From an uncultured virus (IMG/VR IMGVR_UViG_3300020469_000013) (lineage: Duplodnaviria > Heunggongvirae > Uroviricota > Caudoviricetes > Kyanoviridae), in the IMG/VR virus record IMGVR_UViG_3300020469_000013: DNA of 64,000 bases; one strand, 5' to 3'. A model generated the notes under the pieces. The model was not told where the DNA came from. It searched no databases and worked only from the letters and a program-made list of their open reading frames with translations. Each line of letters starts with the position of its first letter. Within the stretch, counting starts at the first letter, position 1. Shown piece by piece: positions 506 to 20,504 of the stretch. A program made the position numbers and the translations under genes.

Positions 506-534
506 TTGCATATATACTTAAAGTATGTTAGTAT
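506..534 (+). promoter_or_regulatory. Sigma70-like promoter
   Basis: TTGCAT (506-511), 17 nt, TAGTAT (529-534) with TGn extension; places the start just before the riboswitch. Confidence 0.55.
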
Positions 535-544
535 TAGCATACAG

Positions 545-779
545 CGTTCATCCCCTTAGGGGACGCAAGTAAGTCGCGGAACGGAGCGTTCATCCTTGTA
601 TCACATCCTGCTCAGTCTAATAGCTATCGGTGCTCCACTTGATTGTGAACACACTGCTGAACTATTAGAAAATGTCGCTAAGAATCCTAATAAAACCGAG
701 AGATTGGAATTAACTAGGGTTATTATTGCACACACTGATCCAGCATGTTTTCCAAAGACGAAAACGACTGAAGGAACGG
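545..779 (+). ncRNA. Tandem glutamine riboswitch (glnA / Downstream-peptide class)
   Basis: Two CGTTCATC 5' strands (545, 587) and two GGAACG 3' strands (ending 583 and 778); GACGCAAGTA and GACG..CGACTGAAGGAACGG hallmarks; lies upstream of a DUF4278-type peptide. Confidence 0.75.
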
Positions 780-784
780 TCTAA
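596..784 (+). CDS. Hypothetical protein (62 aa, hydrophobic N-terminus, two Cys) nested in the second riboswitch aptamer
   Basis: TTG start with GGAG 9 nt upstream; ORF track. Confidence 0.55.
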   Translation: MYHILLSLIAIGAPLDCEHTAELLENVAKNPNKTERLELTRVIIAHTDPACFPKTKTTEGTV

Positions 785-812
785 ACAACCTAATCCTACA
801 GGAGAAACCCAA

Positions 813-935
813 ATGGCACAAGTCACATACCGTGGTATTAAGTACAATACCAACGATAAGAAGCAAACTAATTCTAACAAGGTTCAAGAAACCTATAGAG
901 GAATCAAGTTTGAAAAAGAAGTTGTTACTGCATAG
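813..935 (+). CDS. DUF4278-family small protein (Downstream peptide)
   Basis: MAQVTYRGIKY...ETYRGIKF, two TYRG repeats typical of DUF4278; SD GGAG at 801-804. Confidence 0.85.
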   Translation: MAQVTYRGIKYNTNDKKQTNSNKVQETYRGIKFEKEVVTA

Positions 936-955
936 TATCAATTTCTAATTGATCT

Positions 956-984
956 AAAAGAGGGTTACTTACACCCTCTTTTTT
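956..984 (+). terminator. Rho-independent terminator
   Basis: AAAAGAGGGT-loop-ACCCTCTTTTTT hairpin plus U-tract. Confidence 0.8.
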
Positions 985-1005
985 ATATAAATTATACTAA
1001 AAGCT

Positions 1006-1414: not shown

Positions 1415-1640
1415 AAGAGCAAAACACCATCTTGACTGGTATACACCAGAAGATGTAAAGTATGCTAAAATGATGAGAAAGCAACTAGAGTATGAATGTA
1501 AAATTAATCCAGACGACCCCAGATGCCGAGAAATTAATGGGGTACATAGCGAGAGTAAGCAATCCAAAAAATCAGGAAAATCCAGAAGTCGCTGGATTGC
1601 TAAAATATTGCATAAAGCACGGTCATTGGTCGGTCTTTGA
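1380..1640 (+). CDS. Hypothetical basic protein; 3' part overlaps thyX
   Basis: MKDKKAAKKLIKRAK...WYTPEDVKYAK; 3' end uncertain. Confidence 0.5.
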   Translation: MKDKKAAKKLIKRAKHHLDWYTPEDVKYAKMMRKQLEYECKINPDDPRCREINGVHSESKQSKKSGKSRSRWIAKILHKARSLVGL

Positions 1641-2124
1641 GCAAGCATTTATGACGGTAGAGATTGAAACTACCAGAGGTCTTGCTGCTCAGATATTGCG
1701 TCATAGATCATTTACCTTTCAAGAATTTAGTCAAAGATACGCTAATACGACTCACTTAGGTAATATACCCTTACCAGAACTTCGTAGACAAGATAATAAA
1801 AATAGACAGAATAGTATTGATGATATTGACGATGAGCAAGTTAAGTTTCTTAAAAAAGAAATAGCACTGCATTTTGCTGCAGCAAAGGATTTATACAATG
1901 AACTAATTCGTCAAGGAGTCGCCAAGGAGTGTGCTCGTTTTGTATTACCCTTAGCAACCCCTACTAAACTCTATATGACAGGTTCCTGTCGCTCTTGGGT
2001 GCATTACATCGACCTTAGGAGTGGACATGGTACACAAAAGGAACATATGGACATTGCAAATGAAATTAAAGATATATTTTCTCAACAATTCCCTATTGTT
2101 GCTGAAGCATTAAGTTGGTCATGA
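1492..2124 (+). CDS. thyX: FAD-dependent thymidylate synthase
   Basis: HWSVFEQ, RHRSFTFQEFSQRY (ThyX RHRX7S motif), ECARFVLP. Confidence 0.95.
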   Translation: MNVKLIQTTPDAEKLMGYIARVSNPKNQENPEVAGLLKYCIKHGHWSVFEQAFMTVEIETTRGLAAQILRHRSFTFQEFSQRYANTTHLGNIPLPELRRQDNKNRQNSIDDIDDEQVKFLKKEIALHFAAAKDLYNELIRQGVAKECARFVLPLATPTKLYMTGSCRSWVHYIDLRSGHGTQKEHMDIANEIKDIFSQQFPIVAEALSWS

Positions 2125-2765
2125 CAAGAGGAATTCGTTTTGTTAGTGAATCTCCAGAAACTGTTTTTGCACCAGTTTGGGATTATAGTATTGCTATTAA
2201 ACCAATTGTTATTAATACAGAAGATATTGCTAAAATAGTATTACAAAAAGAGAAAGAAATAATAGATAAGTACTCTGGAGATGATGATGGCAATACAGGA
2301 TTGGGTGTAGATAGTCTAACTGCTAGATTTAAACACTATAATGTGCTAAAATGGCAGGAAGTTGTTATAGCACAATTACATCAAGAAATTCGTATTTTTC
2401 ATGATGAATATTTTGCTCAGGTAATTGGTTCTGAACCACCACCTCTAAAAGTTCGATGTTGGGCAAATGTAATGCGTAAAGGTCAACAGATCAAAAAGCA
2501 TACACATTCCACACATCCACACTCTTATCTTGGTGGACACTTCTGTGTAACTGCTGAGAATACTTCAACTTCGTATATGCATCCATATACTCAAGAAGAT
2601 TATGTTGTAGAGAATAAACCTGGTGAAATTACATTGTTTCCCAACTATTTGACACACTATACATCTGTTCATGAATCAGATGTTCCTAGAATCAGTATTG
2701 CATTTGATCTAGTGACATATAAGAATCTAGTTCATGTGGATGATGACAATCTTGTCATACTCTAA
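2115..2765 (+). CDS. Putative 2OG-Fe(II) oxygenase (TIGR02466-like)
   Basis: WANV...HTH...YLGGHF...PGEITLFPNYLTHY...RISIAFD. Confidence 0.75.
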   Translation: MVMTRGIRFVSESPETVFAPVWDYSIAIKPIVINTEDIAKIVLQKEKEIIDKYSGDDDGNTGLGVDSLTARFKHYNVLKWQEVVIAQLHQEIRIFHDEYFAQVIGSEPPPLKVRCWANVMRKGQQIKKHTHSTHPHSYLGGHFCVTAENTSTSYMHPYTQEDYVVENKPGEITLFPNYLTHYTSVHESDVPRISIAFDLVTYKNLVHVDDDNLVIL

Positions 2766-20246: not shown

Positions 20247-20267
20247 ACAAGAGTTGGACGCAACATC

Positions 20268-20432
20268 GGGAGTGACTGAATAAACTTACTGGCATACTGC
20301 TGGTTAAGGTGATGAGACACAGGTGGTGCTGCTGCGAAAGCAGAATCGACTTACCAGTCGGGTCTCAGGCAAGAATGTATTTACTCTGTAGTAATGCCCA
20401 TTCTTTGTTGGTATACAGGAACCCAACCTCCC
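20268..20432 (+). ncRNA. Structured RNA resembling the manA RNA motif
   Basis: GGGAG/CTCCC closing stem; GTGACTGAATAAAC, GAGACACAGGTGGTGCTGC, CTGC-GAAA-GCAG hairpin, CTGGT/ACCAG, GAGAC/GTCTC, GTTGG/CCAAC pairings; matches my recollection of manA RNA. Confidence 0.7.
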
Positions 20433-20504
20433 TCCTTTTTTTAAAGACCTAAGATGCAACTACTAAGTGGGGCAGATGGTCTTTTTTTATTTTAATGATT
20501 TATT

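What the first reader, a model, noticed from the sequence alone, without database searches (positions are those of the whole stretch)
545..784. Interlocked double glutamine riboswitch with a whole ORF inside the second aptamer
Seen: aptamer 1 is CGTTCA-TCCCC/GGGGA-CGCAAGTA-AGTCG-CGGAACG (545-583). Aptamer 2 opens with CGTTCATC (587) but only closes about 160 nt later with GACGAAAA-CGACT-GAAGGAACG (757-778). A 62-aa ORF (TTG 596, SD GGAG 583-586) fills its P2 loop, and the start codon lies in a P2 stem (TCCTTG/CAAAGA). AGTCG (572-576) of aptamer 1 is complementary to CGACT (765-769) of aptamer 2, flanked by AGTA/GAA (loop-E geometry). Established: glnA and Downstream-peptide RNAs are cyanobacterial glutamine riboswitches. 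Inference: the two aptamers fold as one composite unit, and translation of the nested ORF would unfold it, coupling ribosome traffic to glutamine sensing.
Basis: partly seen in the sequence, partly recalled or inferred. Interest (0 to 1): 0.85.

Follow-up and report, generated by a model that had tools for sequence, protein, structure and literature searches.

The report
Small gene nested in glutamine riboswitch
In this marine cyanophage, the glutamine-sensing RNA leader of a small nitrogen-regulator gene is built from two sensor cores folded one inside the other, and one of its hairpins closes around a real 62-codon gene, although this phage's copy of the inner core and gene is weakened.

Summary
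Every motif is at the stated coordinates, and the layout recurs in 148 distinct cyanophage elements.

The interpretation needs one correction: the two units are nested, not interlocked.
- The first CGUUC (545-549) pairs with the last GAACG (774-778). AGUCG/CGACU (572-576/765-769) is P3 of that canonical outer aptamer.
- The inner GGAACG-GAG-CGUUC (578-591) closes a second, circularly permuted core that shares P3.
- The long-range "linchpin" pair decides it. Nested partners pair in 98 of 98 and 95 of 98 ORF-bearing relatives; interlocked partners pair in 49 of 98.
- Rfam's glutamine model scores six short relatives above threshold as one aptamer spanning the whole tandem.

The nested ORF is a real gene (phrog_504, two invariant cysteines). 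It is intact in 95 of 97 insert-bearing relatives.

The window's copy is the outlier. It has a TTG start, a one-base deletion that carries the frame 6 nt past the aptamer, a C·A mismatch in the closing stem and a broken inner linchpin.

The downstream gene (813-935) is DUF4278, IF17-like.

Coupling between translation and sensing is inferred, not shown.

This scan has noted the same layout on other DNA. I found no paper describing it.

The parts
529..534 (+). Possible -10 box (TAGTAT), 10 nt upstream of the first CGTTCA. A weak -35-like TTGCAT lies at 506-511.
   Evidence: Read by eye. Relatives carry TATAAT-like hexamers at the same distance (sequences printed). The consensus scan did NOT report it, so this is inference only.
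545..549 (+). Outer P1, 5' strand (CGUUC). It pairs with 774-778.
   Evidence: These positions are invariant in relatives, so the pairing partner is inferred from the linchpin test and from the Rfam alignment of short relatives.
551..563 (+). Outer P2 hairpin (UCCCC-UUA-GGGGA).
   Evidence: In 15 short relatives, 3 of 4 stem pairs show changes on both sides.
564..571 (+). Junction CGC plus the loop-E 5' half AAGUA. C566 is the outer linchpin base and pairs with G779.
   Evidence: The c3:j+1 pair is C-G in 49 and G-C in 49 of 98 relatives, all paired.
572..576 (+). P3 5' strand (AGUCG). It pairs with 765-769 and is shared by the outer and inner cores.
   Evidence: Covariation is seen (AGUCA/UGACU, GGUCG/CGACU, AGUCG/CGGCU; in the 8-nt form the terminal pair is U-A 81, G-C 18, A-U 6, U-G 2).
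578..591 (+). Inner P1' hairpin: GAACG 579-583 pairs with CGUUC 587-591, closed by the loop GAG 584-586. GGAG 583-586 is the likely Shine-Dalgarno of the nested ORF. G584 is the inner linchpin base.
   Evidence: This hairpin forms in the minimum-energy folds of short relatives and when only the outer helices are enforced in the window. The linker GAG (or GAGC/GAGT) occurs in 29 of 97 ORF-bearing elements and 0 of 51 short ones.
593..598 (+). Inner P2' 5' strand (UCCUUG), containing the TTG start. It pairs with 753-758 and has a C595·A756 mismatch.
   Evidence: The window is the only one of 97 ORF-bearing elements with just 2 consecutive pairs at the junction; the mode is 5.
596..784 (+). Nested ORF of 62 codons, phrog_504 family, TTG start. 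Its C-terminus is frameshifted relative to the family.
   Evidence: phrog_504 match at 29.3 bits, E 1.1e-6. 85% identity to the L067 protein. DNA alignment shows a 2-nt gap at the ATG and a 1-nt gap before CGAAAA.
753..758 (+). Inner P2' 3' strand (CAAAGA).
759..764 (+). Inner junction CGAAAA. Relatives have CGCAAA, CGCACA, CGCAGA or CGGAAA. A761 faces G584, so the inner linchpin is broken.
   Evidence: The window is the only one of 148 elements with A at this position.
765..769 (+). P3 3' strand (CGACU).
770..779 (+). Loop-E 3' half GAA (770-772), outer P1 3' strand GAACG (774-778) and linchpin G779.
801..804 (+). Shine-Dalgarno GGAG of the regulated gene.
   Evidence: It is conserved before the ATG in relatives.
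813..935 (+). Regulated gene: a 40-aa DUF4278 (IF17-like) protein with two YRG motifs.
   Evidence: Pfam PF14105 at 28 bits against a cut-off of 25.3. phrog_5049 at E 2.1e-16. DUF4278 is part of IF17, the glutamine synthetase inactivating factor (Klahn 2018, PMC6212724, passages read).
956..985 (+). Terminator-like hairpin followed by a U run.
   Evidence: Fold of 940-1000: -13.0 kcal/mol, z -3.48. The simple terminator scan did not list it.

Best explanation
Bases about 540-985 form one small transcription unit. Its leader is a nested double glutamine aptamer in front of an IF17-like (DUF4278) gene.

Outer aptamer. This is a canonical type-1 (glnA) glutamine aptamer:
- P1 545-549/774-778
- P2 551-563
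- loop E AAGUA 567-571 with GAA 770-772
- P3 572-576/765-769
- linchpin C566:G779

Inner core. P3 is not capped by a loop. It is capped by a second, circularly permuted aptamer core:
- P1' 579-583/587-591, closed by GAG
- P2' 593-598/753-758
- junction CGAAAA
- it uses the same P3 helix in the opposite sense and has no loop E of its own

Nested gene. The P2' loop holds a real small gene (596-784, phrog_504). Its start codon lies in the P2' stem and its Shine-Dalgarno lies in the P1' loop.

How it works (inferred). Glutamine bound to the outer aptamer fixes P1 and G779 and thereby sets translation of the IF17-like gene. By analogy with cyanobacterial leaders this is probably an ON switch. A ribosome reading the nested ORF must melt P2', P3, loop E and, in this phage, P1 as well. 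Translating the nested gene and sensing are therefore mutually exclusive on one RNA.

In this phage the inner core is weakened: linchpin A761·G584, a C595·A756 mismatch, a TTG start and a shifted C-terminus. Probably only the outer aptamer still senses.
For: SHOWN
1. All motifs are present at the stated coordinates.
2. The layout is conserved: 187 of 244 sequences examined, 148 distinct, 97 with a long insert and 51 with a short hairpin.
3. P3 covaries. In the 5-nt form all 37 elements pair 5 of 5, including AGUCA/UGACU and AGUCG/CGGCU. In the 8-nt form d8:i1 is U-A 81, G-C 18, A-U 6, U-G 2 of 107. d1:i8 pairs in 106 of 107 with four pair types. These changes would break the two-pair mini-hairpins drawn in the published alignment.
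4. Nested, not interlocked. On 98 ORF-bearing rows the outer linchpin is C-G 49 and G-C 49, all paired, and the inner one is paired in 95 of 98. The interlocked partners pair in 49 of 98 each. Over 148 elements the cell counts are 287 of 296 against 144 of 296.
5. Rfam's Glutamine model scores 6 of 7 short 5-nt-type relatives as ONE aptamer spanning the whole tandem: 38.4-43.6 bits against a threshold of 35, with P3 AGU/ACU around 38 nt.
6. Minimum-energy folds of short relatives give the nested fold.
7. The ORF is real. There are 93 of 97 canonical ORFs plus 2 that stop a little early. The family is phrog_504 and has two invariant cysteines in 50 proteins. The 16 closest pairs have dN/dS 0.15-0.63. 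The predicted fold is confident in its core.
8. Paralogous ORFs sit in the outer P2 loop of 21 of 22 relatives that lack a nearby first CGTTCA. hhalign gives probability 96.3%, E 1.7e-9.
9. The downstream gene is DUF4278.

INFERRED
- Glutamine binding.
- The direction of the switch.
- Competition between ribosome and fold.
- Loss of function of the inner core.
Against: - The P1 and P1' strands never vary, so the choice of partners rests on a single linchpin pair. Its two states each fill a large clade, which means few independent events.
- On the 15 short relatives the two topologies score identically.
- Thermodynamics does not discriminate in the window: nested -53.3, tandem -53.2, unconstrained -55.6 kcal/mol. 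The whole-leader fold has z -0.46.
- In the 8-nt type P3 has two conserved A/C mismatches (6 of 8 pairs), and Rfam there prefers separate units.
- The inner linchpin is unpaired in 9 of 148 elements.
- No ligand-binding, probing or ribosome data exist for any of these RNAs.
- The expression platform of the marine type could not be resolved.
- Ames and Breaker 2011 and Ren 2015 could not be read and might already treat the tandem fold.
Confidence: 0.65

Rival explanations
1. Interlocked fold. Each CGUUC pairs with the nearest GGAACG (545-549/579-583 and 587-591/774-778), and AGUCG/CGACU is a pseudoknot tying the two aptamers together.
For: The same helices and covariation in P2, P2' and AGUCG/CGACU are compatible with it. 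On 15 short relatives it scores the same as the nested fold. In the window its energy without the pseudoknot equals the nested one. Unit 1 alone gives a weak Rfam match. During transcription 545-583 could fold this way for a time, before 765-778 exists.
Against: - The linchpin partners it requires pair in only 49 of 98 rows each, and in 144 of 296 cells over 148 elements.
- Loop E can form only between AAGUA of unit 1 and GAA of unit 2.
- Only one base (C577) links the far end of the P3 strand to the GGAACG that would have to return to P1. This steric objection is my own inference.
- Rfam aligns short relatives as one outer aptamer.
Confidence: 0.1
2. Two independent tandem riboswitches, as in the published view: pseudo-cooperative, each with its own tiny P3. 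The AGUCG/CGACU complementarity would then be a by-product.
For: The Weinberg 2010 seed alignment lists such units as separate aptamers with an AG-CCGA-CU mini-P3 (supplement parts read). Sherlock 2022 counts 157 doublets and 4 triplets as pseudo-cooperative systems (passage read). Rfam scores single units of the 8-nt type at 32-40 bits.
Against: - The 5-nt type, which includes the window, has no possible mini-hairpin.
- Unit 1 lacks GAA and unit 2 lacks GUA of loop E.
- Changes such as AGCCGACA with UGCCGACU, or AGCCGACG with CGCCGACU, break both mini-hairpins but keep the inter-unit helix.
- The linchpin crosses the units.
- Unit 1 of the window scores below Rfam's threshold and unit 2 is not found at all.
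Confidence: 0.07
3. The nested ORF is a passenger. Hairpin loops tolerate insertions, and a small phage gene settled there to use the leader's promoter. Its translation has no regulatory meaning for the riboswitch. In this window it may already be decaying.
For: - 51 of 148 elements do without any insert.
- Paralogous ORFs occupy either hairpin.
- 2 of 97 inserts carry no normal ORF: L219 is cut to 20 codons and the window has a TTG start and a shifted end. Two more stop early.
- The window copy lacks ATG and the family's C-terminus.
- The fold search gave no functional hint.
Against: - The start codon sits 3-5 nt after CGUUCA in 92 of 93 canonical ORFs, and the stop straddles the P3/loop-E border in all 93. 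The last residues (W)DAND/DAKAD are therefore encoded by the aptamer core. That points to long coexistence rather than random insertion.
- The GAG linker, which creates GGAG, is found only with ORFs, although this could be a lineage effect.
- Whatever the origin, a translating ribosome must open the sensor.
Confidence: 0.3

Closest known systems
Type-1 glutamine riboswitch (glnA RNA, Rfam RF01739), e.g. the Synechocystis gifB (IF17) leader (Klahn 2018, PMC6212724)
   Same: Same conserved core (CGUUCA, CG[C/G]AAGUA, GAAGGAACG). Same three-way junction with loop E and a long-range linchpin pair. Same kind of downstream gene (DUF4278).
   Different: P3 closes around 188 nt instead of a short loop. 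That insert holds a second aptamer core and a protein gene. Rfam's model does not reach its threshold here (27.6 bits against 35).
Tandem 'pseudo-cooperative' glutamine riboswitches (Weinberg 2010, PMC2864571; Sherlock 2022, PMC9481103)
   Same: Two glutamine aptamer cores in a row in one leader, common in marine sequences and cyanophages.
   Different: In print they are treated as separate aptamers. Here the units are incomplete on their own, share one helix, and exchange P1 and linchpin partners.
Tandem glycine riboswitch (two aptamers, one expression platform; listed as 'dual aptamer' in the table of Sherlock 2022 seen; its inter-aptamer contacts are recalled, not checked)
   Same: Two aptamers for the same ligand that touch each other and act as one sensor.
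   Different: Glycine aptamers lie side by side and dock by tertiary contacts. Here one core is inserted into a helix of the other and shares that helix.
Glutamine-II riboswitch (Downstream-peptide motif, RF01704; Huang 2019, PMC6698751)
   Same: Same ligand pocket sequence and the same linchpin logic. Found before DUF4278 genes in marine picocyanobacteria.
   Different: That class is a pseudoknot without loop E or a three-way junction. The window scores 25.3 bits against 33.
Leader-peptide attenuators, where translation of a short upstream ORF remodels the mRNA (general knowledge, recalled)
   Same: A ribosome on an upstream ORF decides which RNA fold can form.
   Different: There the peptide is only a sensor of tRNA or drug. 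Here the ORF encodes a conserved protein family and lies inside a ligand-binding aptamer.

Membership tests
Type-1 glutamine riboswitch (glnA RNA, RF01739) | Conserved P1 strands CGUUC and GAACG | tested here: met
   545-549 with 774-778 (outer) and 587-591 with 579-583 (inner). Both are invariant in relatives.
Type-1 glutamine riboswitch (glnA RNA, RF01739) | P2 hairpin directly after CGUUCA | tested here: met
   551-563. It covaries in relatives. The inner P2' 593-598/753-758 has a C·A mismatch.
Type-1 glutamine riboswitch (glnA RNA, RF01739) | Loop E (AAGUA opposite GAA) between P1 and P3 | tested here: met
   It exists only as a composite of 567-571 (unit 1) and 770-772 (unit 2). The inner core has none.
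Type-1 glutamine riboswitch (glnA RNA, RF01739) | P3 helix | tested here: met
   572-576 with 765-769, five Watson-Crick pairs. It covaries in relatives. It encloses 188 nt instead of a loop.
Type-1 glutamine riboswitch (glnA RNA, RF01739) | Long-range linchpin pair (third base of CGN with the base after GGAACG) | tested here: met
   Outer C566:G779 is met, and the pair is kept in 98 of 98 relatives with both C-G and G-C. Inner A761·G584 is NOT met in the window.
Type-1 glutamine riboswitch (glnA RNA, RF01739) | Score at or above Rfam's gathering threshold | tested here: not met
   27.6 bits against 35, for 543-587 only. Nothing at gathering level. Short relatives reach 38-44 bits as whole tandems. 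A model built here could not span the insert.
Type-1 glutamine riboswitch (glnA RNA, RF01739) | Selective binding of L-glutamine | not testable with these tools
   Needs in-line probing or calorimetry.
Type-1 glutamine riboswitch (glnA RNA, RF01739) | Lies in the leader of a nitrogen-related gene (mostly DUF4278/IF17) | tested here: met
   813-935 is DUF4278, 28 bits against a cut-off of 25.3. The association is described in Klahn 2018.
Independent tandem (pseudo-cooperative) glutamine riboswitches | Each unit is a complete aptamer with its own P3, loop E and linchpin | tested here: not met
   Unit 1 lacks GAA and a P3 partner. Unit 2 lacks GUA. The linchpin partners cross the units.
Glutamine-II riboswitch (RF01704) | Pseudoknot architecture and Rfam score at threshold | tested here: not met
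   25.3 bits against 33. The match covers only the shared core of unit 1.
phrog_504 small phage protein (nested ORF) | Profile match and two conserved cysteines | tested here: met
   E 1.1e-6, 29.3 bits over residues 9-52. C17 and C51 are invariant in 50 sequences.
phrog_504 small phage protein (nested ORF) | ATG in the P2' stem, and a C-terminal DAND/DAKAD with the stop at the P3/loop-E border | tested here: not met
   The window has a TTG start, and a 1-nt deletion gives ...KTKTTEGTV with the stop at 782-784. 93 of 97 relatives are canonical.

The most novel reading that the evidence does not exclude
The leader is a two-way translational switch in which the ribosome itself acts as the anti-aptamer.
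- At low glutamine the inner core stays open and the nested two-cysteine protein is made. Each passing ribosome erases the sensor.
- At high glutamine both cores lock around the shared P3. This buries the nested gene's start codon and Shine-Dalgarno and turns on the IF17-like gene.

One RNA would then choose between two small proteins according to nitrogen status. Aptamer-embedded genes would be an evolved expression platform, shared by many cyanophages.
Probability: 0.25. Interest if true: 0.85.

Novelty: new variant of a known kind. Interest (0 to 1): 0.7.

Why it matters
Riboswitch aptamers are taken to be compact non-coding domains, and tandem glutamine riboswitches are filed as two independent sensors.

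Here the evidence points to one aptamer core inserted into a helix of another. Conserved protein genes are threaded through the hairpins, so the same bases act as ligand-pocket neighbours, helix strands and codons.

Three consequences follow:
- Standard scans miss these leaders. Rfam scores the window below threshold.
- The small genes involved (phrog_504, phrog_6471) are currently annotated without context.
- The system offers a natural test of how translation and ligand sensing compete on one RNA.

It also bears on how cyanophages read and manipulate host nitrogen status through IF17-like proteins.

The window's degraded copy is a natural mutant. It should bind one glutamine where relatives may bind two.

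Tried and rejected
- A covariance model of the nested tandem built from 15 short relatives matched only unit 1 in the window (543-585, 26.8 bits). It could not span the 166-nt insert, so it gave no membership score for the composite.
- The window's own assembly is not held. The nearest record, G001, is a 33-kb fragment without this locus.
- My scan of genome contigs used too loose a pattern. It therefore says nothing about cellular genomes.
- Single-sequence folding does not single out the structure (z -0.46). Constrained energies do not separate nested from tandem.
- The consensus fold of the region between the aptamer and the downstream start gave only a weak 3-pair hairpin. The expression platform and the direction of the switch in the marine type stay open.
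- Foldseek against the PDB gave no match at E <= 0.001 for the ORF model.
- Pfam has no family for the ORF.
- RNA-library contigs were laid from 4 runs of 4 studies. X1 covers 566-890 with 0 differences, X3 covers 568-864 and X16 covers 566-813, each with 1. This shows that the window's allele exists in nature and that contigs bridge ORF, aptamer end and downstream start. Contigs cannot prove transcription, ends or translation. The stretches without cover (428-555, 908-939) carry no weight.
- The promoter and terminator scan found neither the -10 box I read by eye nor the hairpin at 956-985.
- My recollection that DUF4278 is PirA was wrong. The papers say IF17.
- Papers not held: Ames and Breaker 2011 and Ren 2015.
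Full report
WHAT IS THERE

The window is from a T4-like cyanophage.
- It carries a manA RNA.
- Its best relatives at this locus are Prochlorococcus and Synechococcus myoviruses. 424 phage records match part of 480-960. None covers 80% of it. The best are MED4-213, P-HM1 and P-HM2 at 76-79% identity over 561-856.

The order is:
- CGTTCA 545
- hairpin 551-563
- CGCAAGTA 564-571
- AGTCG 572-576
- C, then GGAACG 578-583
- GAG
- CGTTCATC 587
- TTG 596
- about 155 nt of ORF
- CAAAGA 753-758
- CGAAAA 759-764
- CGACT 765-769
- GAAGGAACG 770-778

The ORF 596-784 (62 aa, TTG start) is in the mechanical list.

- The stem UCCUUG/CAAAGA has a C595·A756 mismatch.
- The ORF ends 6 nt beyond the aptamer.

Rfam at curated thresholds sees nothing here. 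At relaxed thresholds only 543-587 matches: Glutamine 27.6 bits against 35, and Glutamine-II 25.3 against 33.

The gene after the leader (813-935) is DUF4278. This domain is part of IF17, the glutamine synthetase inactivating factor, and it is the usual partner of glutamine riboswitches (Klahn 2018, passages read). A hairpin with a U run follows at 956-985. The unit is therefore a leader, a nested ORF, an IF17-like gene and a terminator.

RELATIVES

Six annotated phages show the same order, and in them the nested ORF is annotated as a hypothetical protein.

Two pattern scans of viral contigs brought 117 and 120 loci. They are therefore biased towards tandems.

Of 244 sequences (243 loci plus the window), 187 parse as the element and 148 are distinct. 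97 have a long insert in the second hairpin and 51 have a short hairpin.

THE HELIX BETWEEN THE UNITS IS REAL

Call the segment after AAGUA "d" and the segment before GAAGG "i".

In the 5-nt type, which includes the window, all 37 distinct elements pair 5 of 5:
- AGUCG/CGACU in 32
- GGUCG/CGACU in 3
- AGUCA/UGACU in 1
- AGUCG/CGGCU in 1

In the 8-nt type (107 elements):
- the terminal pair d8:i1 is U-A 81, G-C 18, A-U 6 and U-G 2
- d1:i8 is A-U 102, C-G 2, G-C 1, G-U 1 and A·C 1
- two inner A/C mismatches are conserved, so 6 of 8 positions pair

The published seed alignment draws each 8-mer as its own AG-CCGA-CU mini-hairpin (Weinberg 2010 supplement, parts read). The changes AGCCGACA with UGCCGACU, and AGCCGACG with CGCCGACU, break both mini-hairpins and keep the inter-unit helix.

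On the 15 fully short relatives the whole structure is 96% paired, and no shuffle of 500 reaches it.

NESTED OR INTERLOCKED

The two CGUUC strands are identical and the two GAACG strands are identical, so P1 itself cannot decide. On the short set the two topologies score the same.

The known long-range pair can decide. It joins the third base of CG[C/G] after P2 to the base after GGAACG. This is C19:G41 in glutamine-II, with an equivalent pair in glutamine-I (Huang 2019, passages read).

Over 148 elements:
- 68 have C, G, C, G in the order outer junction base, base after the last GGAACG, inner junction base, base after the first GGAACG
- 69 have G, C, C, G
- 2 have G, C, G, C
- 8 have G, C, C and then A or U in place of the last G
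- the window alone has C, G, A, G
- nested partners pair in 287 of 296 cells; interlocked partners pair in 144 of 296

On a tool alignment of 98 ORF-bearing rows:
- the outer pair is C-G 49 and G-C 49, all paired
- the inner pair is paired in 95 of 98; the window is misaligned by two columns there and is really A·G, so the true figure is 94
- the interlocked partners pair in 49 of 98 each

Caveat: the two states fill two large clades, so the number of independent double changes is small.

Independent support:
- Rfam's Glutamine model aligns 6 of 7 short 5-nt-type relatives as ONE aptamer spanning the whole tandem. Scores are 38.4-43.6 bits against a threshold of 35, with P1 formed by the first CGUUC and the last GAACG, and P3 AGU/ACU around 38 nt.
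- For the 8 relatives of the 8-nt type, Rfam prefers single units.
- Minimum-energy folds of short relatives give the nested fold.
- Loop E can form only from AAGUA of unit 1 and GAA of unit 2.
- In the interlocked fold a single base would have to bridge from the top of P3 back to P1. This last point is my own inference.

THE RESULTING ANATOMY

The outer aptamer is canonical. P3 is capped by a three-way junction made of:
- GAACG-loop-CGUUC, a P1 closed by a loop
- the long hairpin P2'
- the junction CGCAAA

This is a circular permutation of the aptamer core. It uses the same P3 in the opposite sense and has no loop E.

THE ORF IS A GENE

- In 93 of 97 long elements an ORF of 49-66 codons starts at an ATG 3-5 nt after CGUUCA (10 nt in one case). 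It ends at a UGA or UAA that straddles the P3/loop-E border.
- Two more are intact but stop a little earlier. One is cut to 20 codons.
- The proteins belong to phrog_504: 88.5 bits for S-SSM4 and 29.3 bits for the window.
- They share two invariant cysteines.
- dN/dS is 0.15-0.63 in the 16 closest pairs. The median is 0.60 over 587 usable pairs, and many of those pairs are saturated.
- The predicted fold is a two-helix hairpin with mean pLDDT 77.9 and a core above 90. It has no significant PDB match.
- In 21 of 22 relatives that lack a nearby first CGTTCA, the outer P2 loop also holds an ORF of 61-69 codons. Its start is in the stem, and its stop is in the stem or in AAGUAA.
- That family (phrog_6471 for P-HM1) is homologous to the inner one: hhalign probability 96.3%, E 1.7e-9.

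THE WINDOW'S COPY IS THE OUTLIER

Against its closest relative (L067, 81.5% DNA identity) the window differs in four ways:
- It lacks two bases at the ATG, leaving TTG.
- It lacks one base before the junction, so the frame misses the family stop and runs to TAA 782-784.
- Its closing stem has only 2 consecutive pairs at the junction. That is 1 of 97; the mode is 5.
- Its junction reads CGAAAA, which breaks the inner linchpin. That is 1 of 148.

The allele is not an assembly error. Contigs from RNA libraries of three studies match 566-890, 568-864 and 566-813 with 0-1 differences. Contigs cannot show transcription or translation.

MECHANISM

Shown: the architecture and the coding status.

Inferred:
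- Glutamine binding to the outer aptamer fixes P1 and G779 and so controls initiation at 813.
- In relatives whose linchpin base is C, the bases right after it pair with the Shine-Dalgarno (CUCUUUA with UAAGGAG, or CGCUU with AAGCG; sequences). This fits the ON model of Klahn 2018.
- For the marine type, which includes the window, I could not resolve the platform.
- Any ribosome on the nested ORF must open P2', P3, loop E and, here, P1. Sensing and translation of the nested gene therefore exclude each other.
- The nested gene's start codon (in the P2' stem) and GGAG (in the P1' loop, next to the inner linchpin) would be hidden in the folded state.
- With its inner core weakened, the window probably senses with the outer aptamer alone.

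KNOWN OR NEW

Tandem glutamine riboswitches in cyanophages and marine DNA are known:
- Weinberg 2010, main-text passage read
- Sherlock 2022, 157 doublets and 4 triplets called pseudo-cooperative, passage read

I found no mention of a shared P3, a nested core or genes inside the hairpins in the following places:
- the full-text searches
- the passages read
- Weinberg's seed alignment, searched for ORF-bearing strings

Ames and Breaker 2011 and Ren 2015 are not held, and supplements of other papers were not read, so priority remains open.

This scan has noted the same layout on other DNA at least eight times. Some of those notes call it nested and some call it interlocked. I reached my reading before seeing them and tested it here.

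Noticed in passing
window 20252-20437 (+): A full-length manA RNA (Rfam RF01745) at 185.5 bits against a threshold of 55.2. It is the only Rfam match in the window at curated thresholds.
   Followed up: no
L001-L003 409-609; L007 243-428; L029 234-431 and others: In 21 of 22 relatives the FIRST hairpin (outer P2) also encloses a 61-69-codon ORF with two cysteines. Its start is in the stem, and its stop is in the stem or in the loop-E AAGUAA. The family is homologous to the inner ORF family (hhalign probability 96.3%).
   Followed up: yes
L021, L048, L078, L057, L088 and others, just downstream of the element: In a subset of relatives the gene after the riboswitch is not DUF4278. It is another small protein beginning MNTLNLIKKQI....
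   Followed up: no
L046, L070, L102, L114, L119, L029, between GGAACG and the downstream Shine-Dalgarno: Some relatives carry an extra conserved stretch of about 30-40 nt with a small hairpin (ACGGAUC...GAGAAGGU...) between the aptamer and the ribosome-binding site. An Rfam scan of four of them gave no family for it.
   Followed up: partly
window 1492-2124 and 2115-2765 (+): Neighbouring genes: ThyX (Pfam Thy1, E 8.6e-49) and a putative 2OG-Fe(II) oxygenase (E 9e-12), both.
   Followed up: partly
8-nt form of the shared helix in relatives (e.g. L062, L096): Two A/C mismatches are conserved at positions 3 and 6 of the 8-pair helix. They even swap sides (C·A to A·C in L034). This suggests a specific non-Watson-Crick role rather than a defect.
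   Followed up: partly
L272 and L325 (genome contigs): Two contigs filed under bacterial genome bins carry the ORF-bearing element. One is a 3.8-kb contig in a bin labelled Acetobacteraceae, which is probably a mis-binned phage fragment.
   Followed up: no
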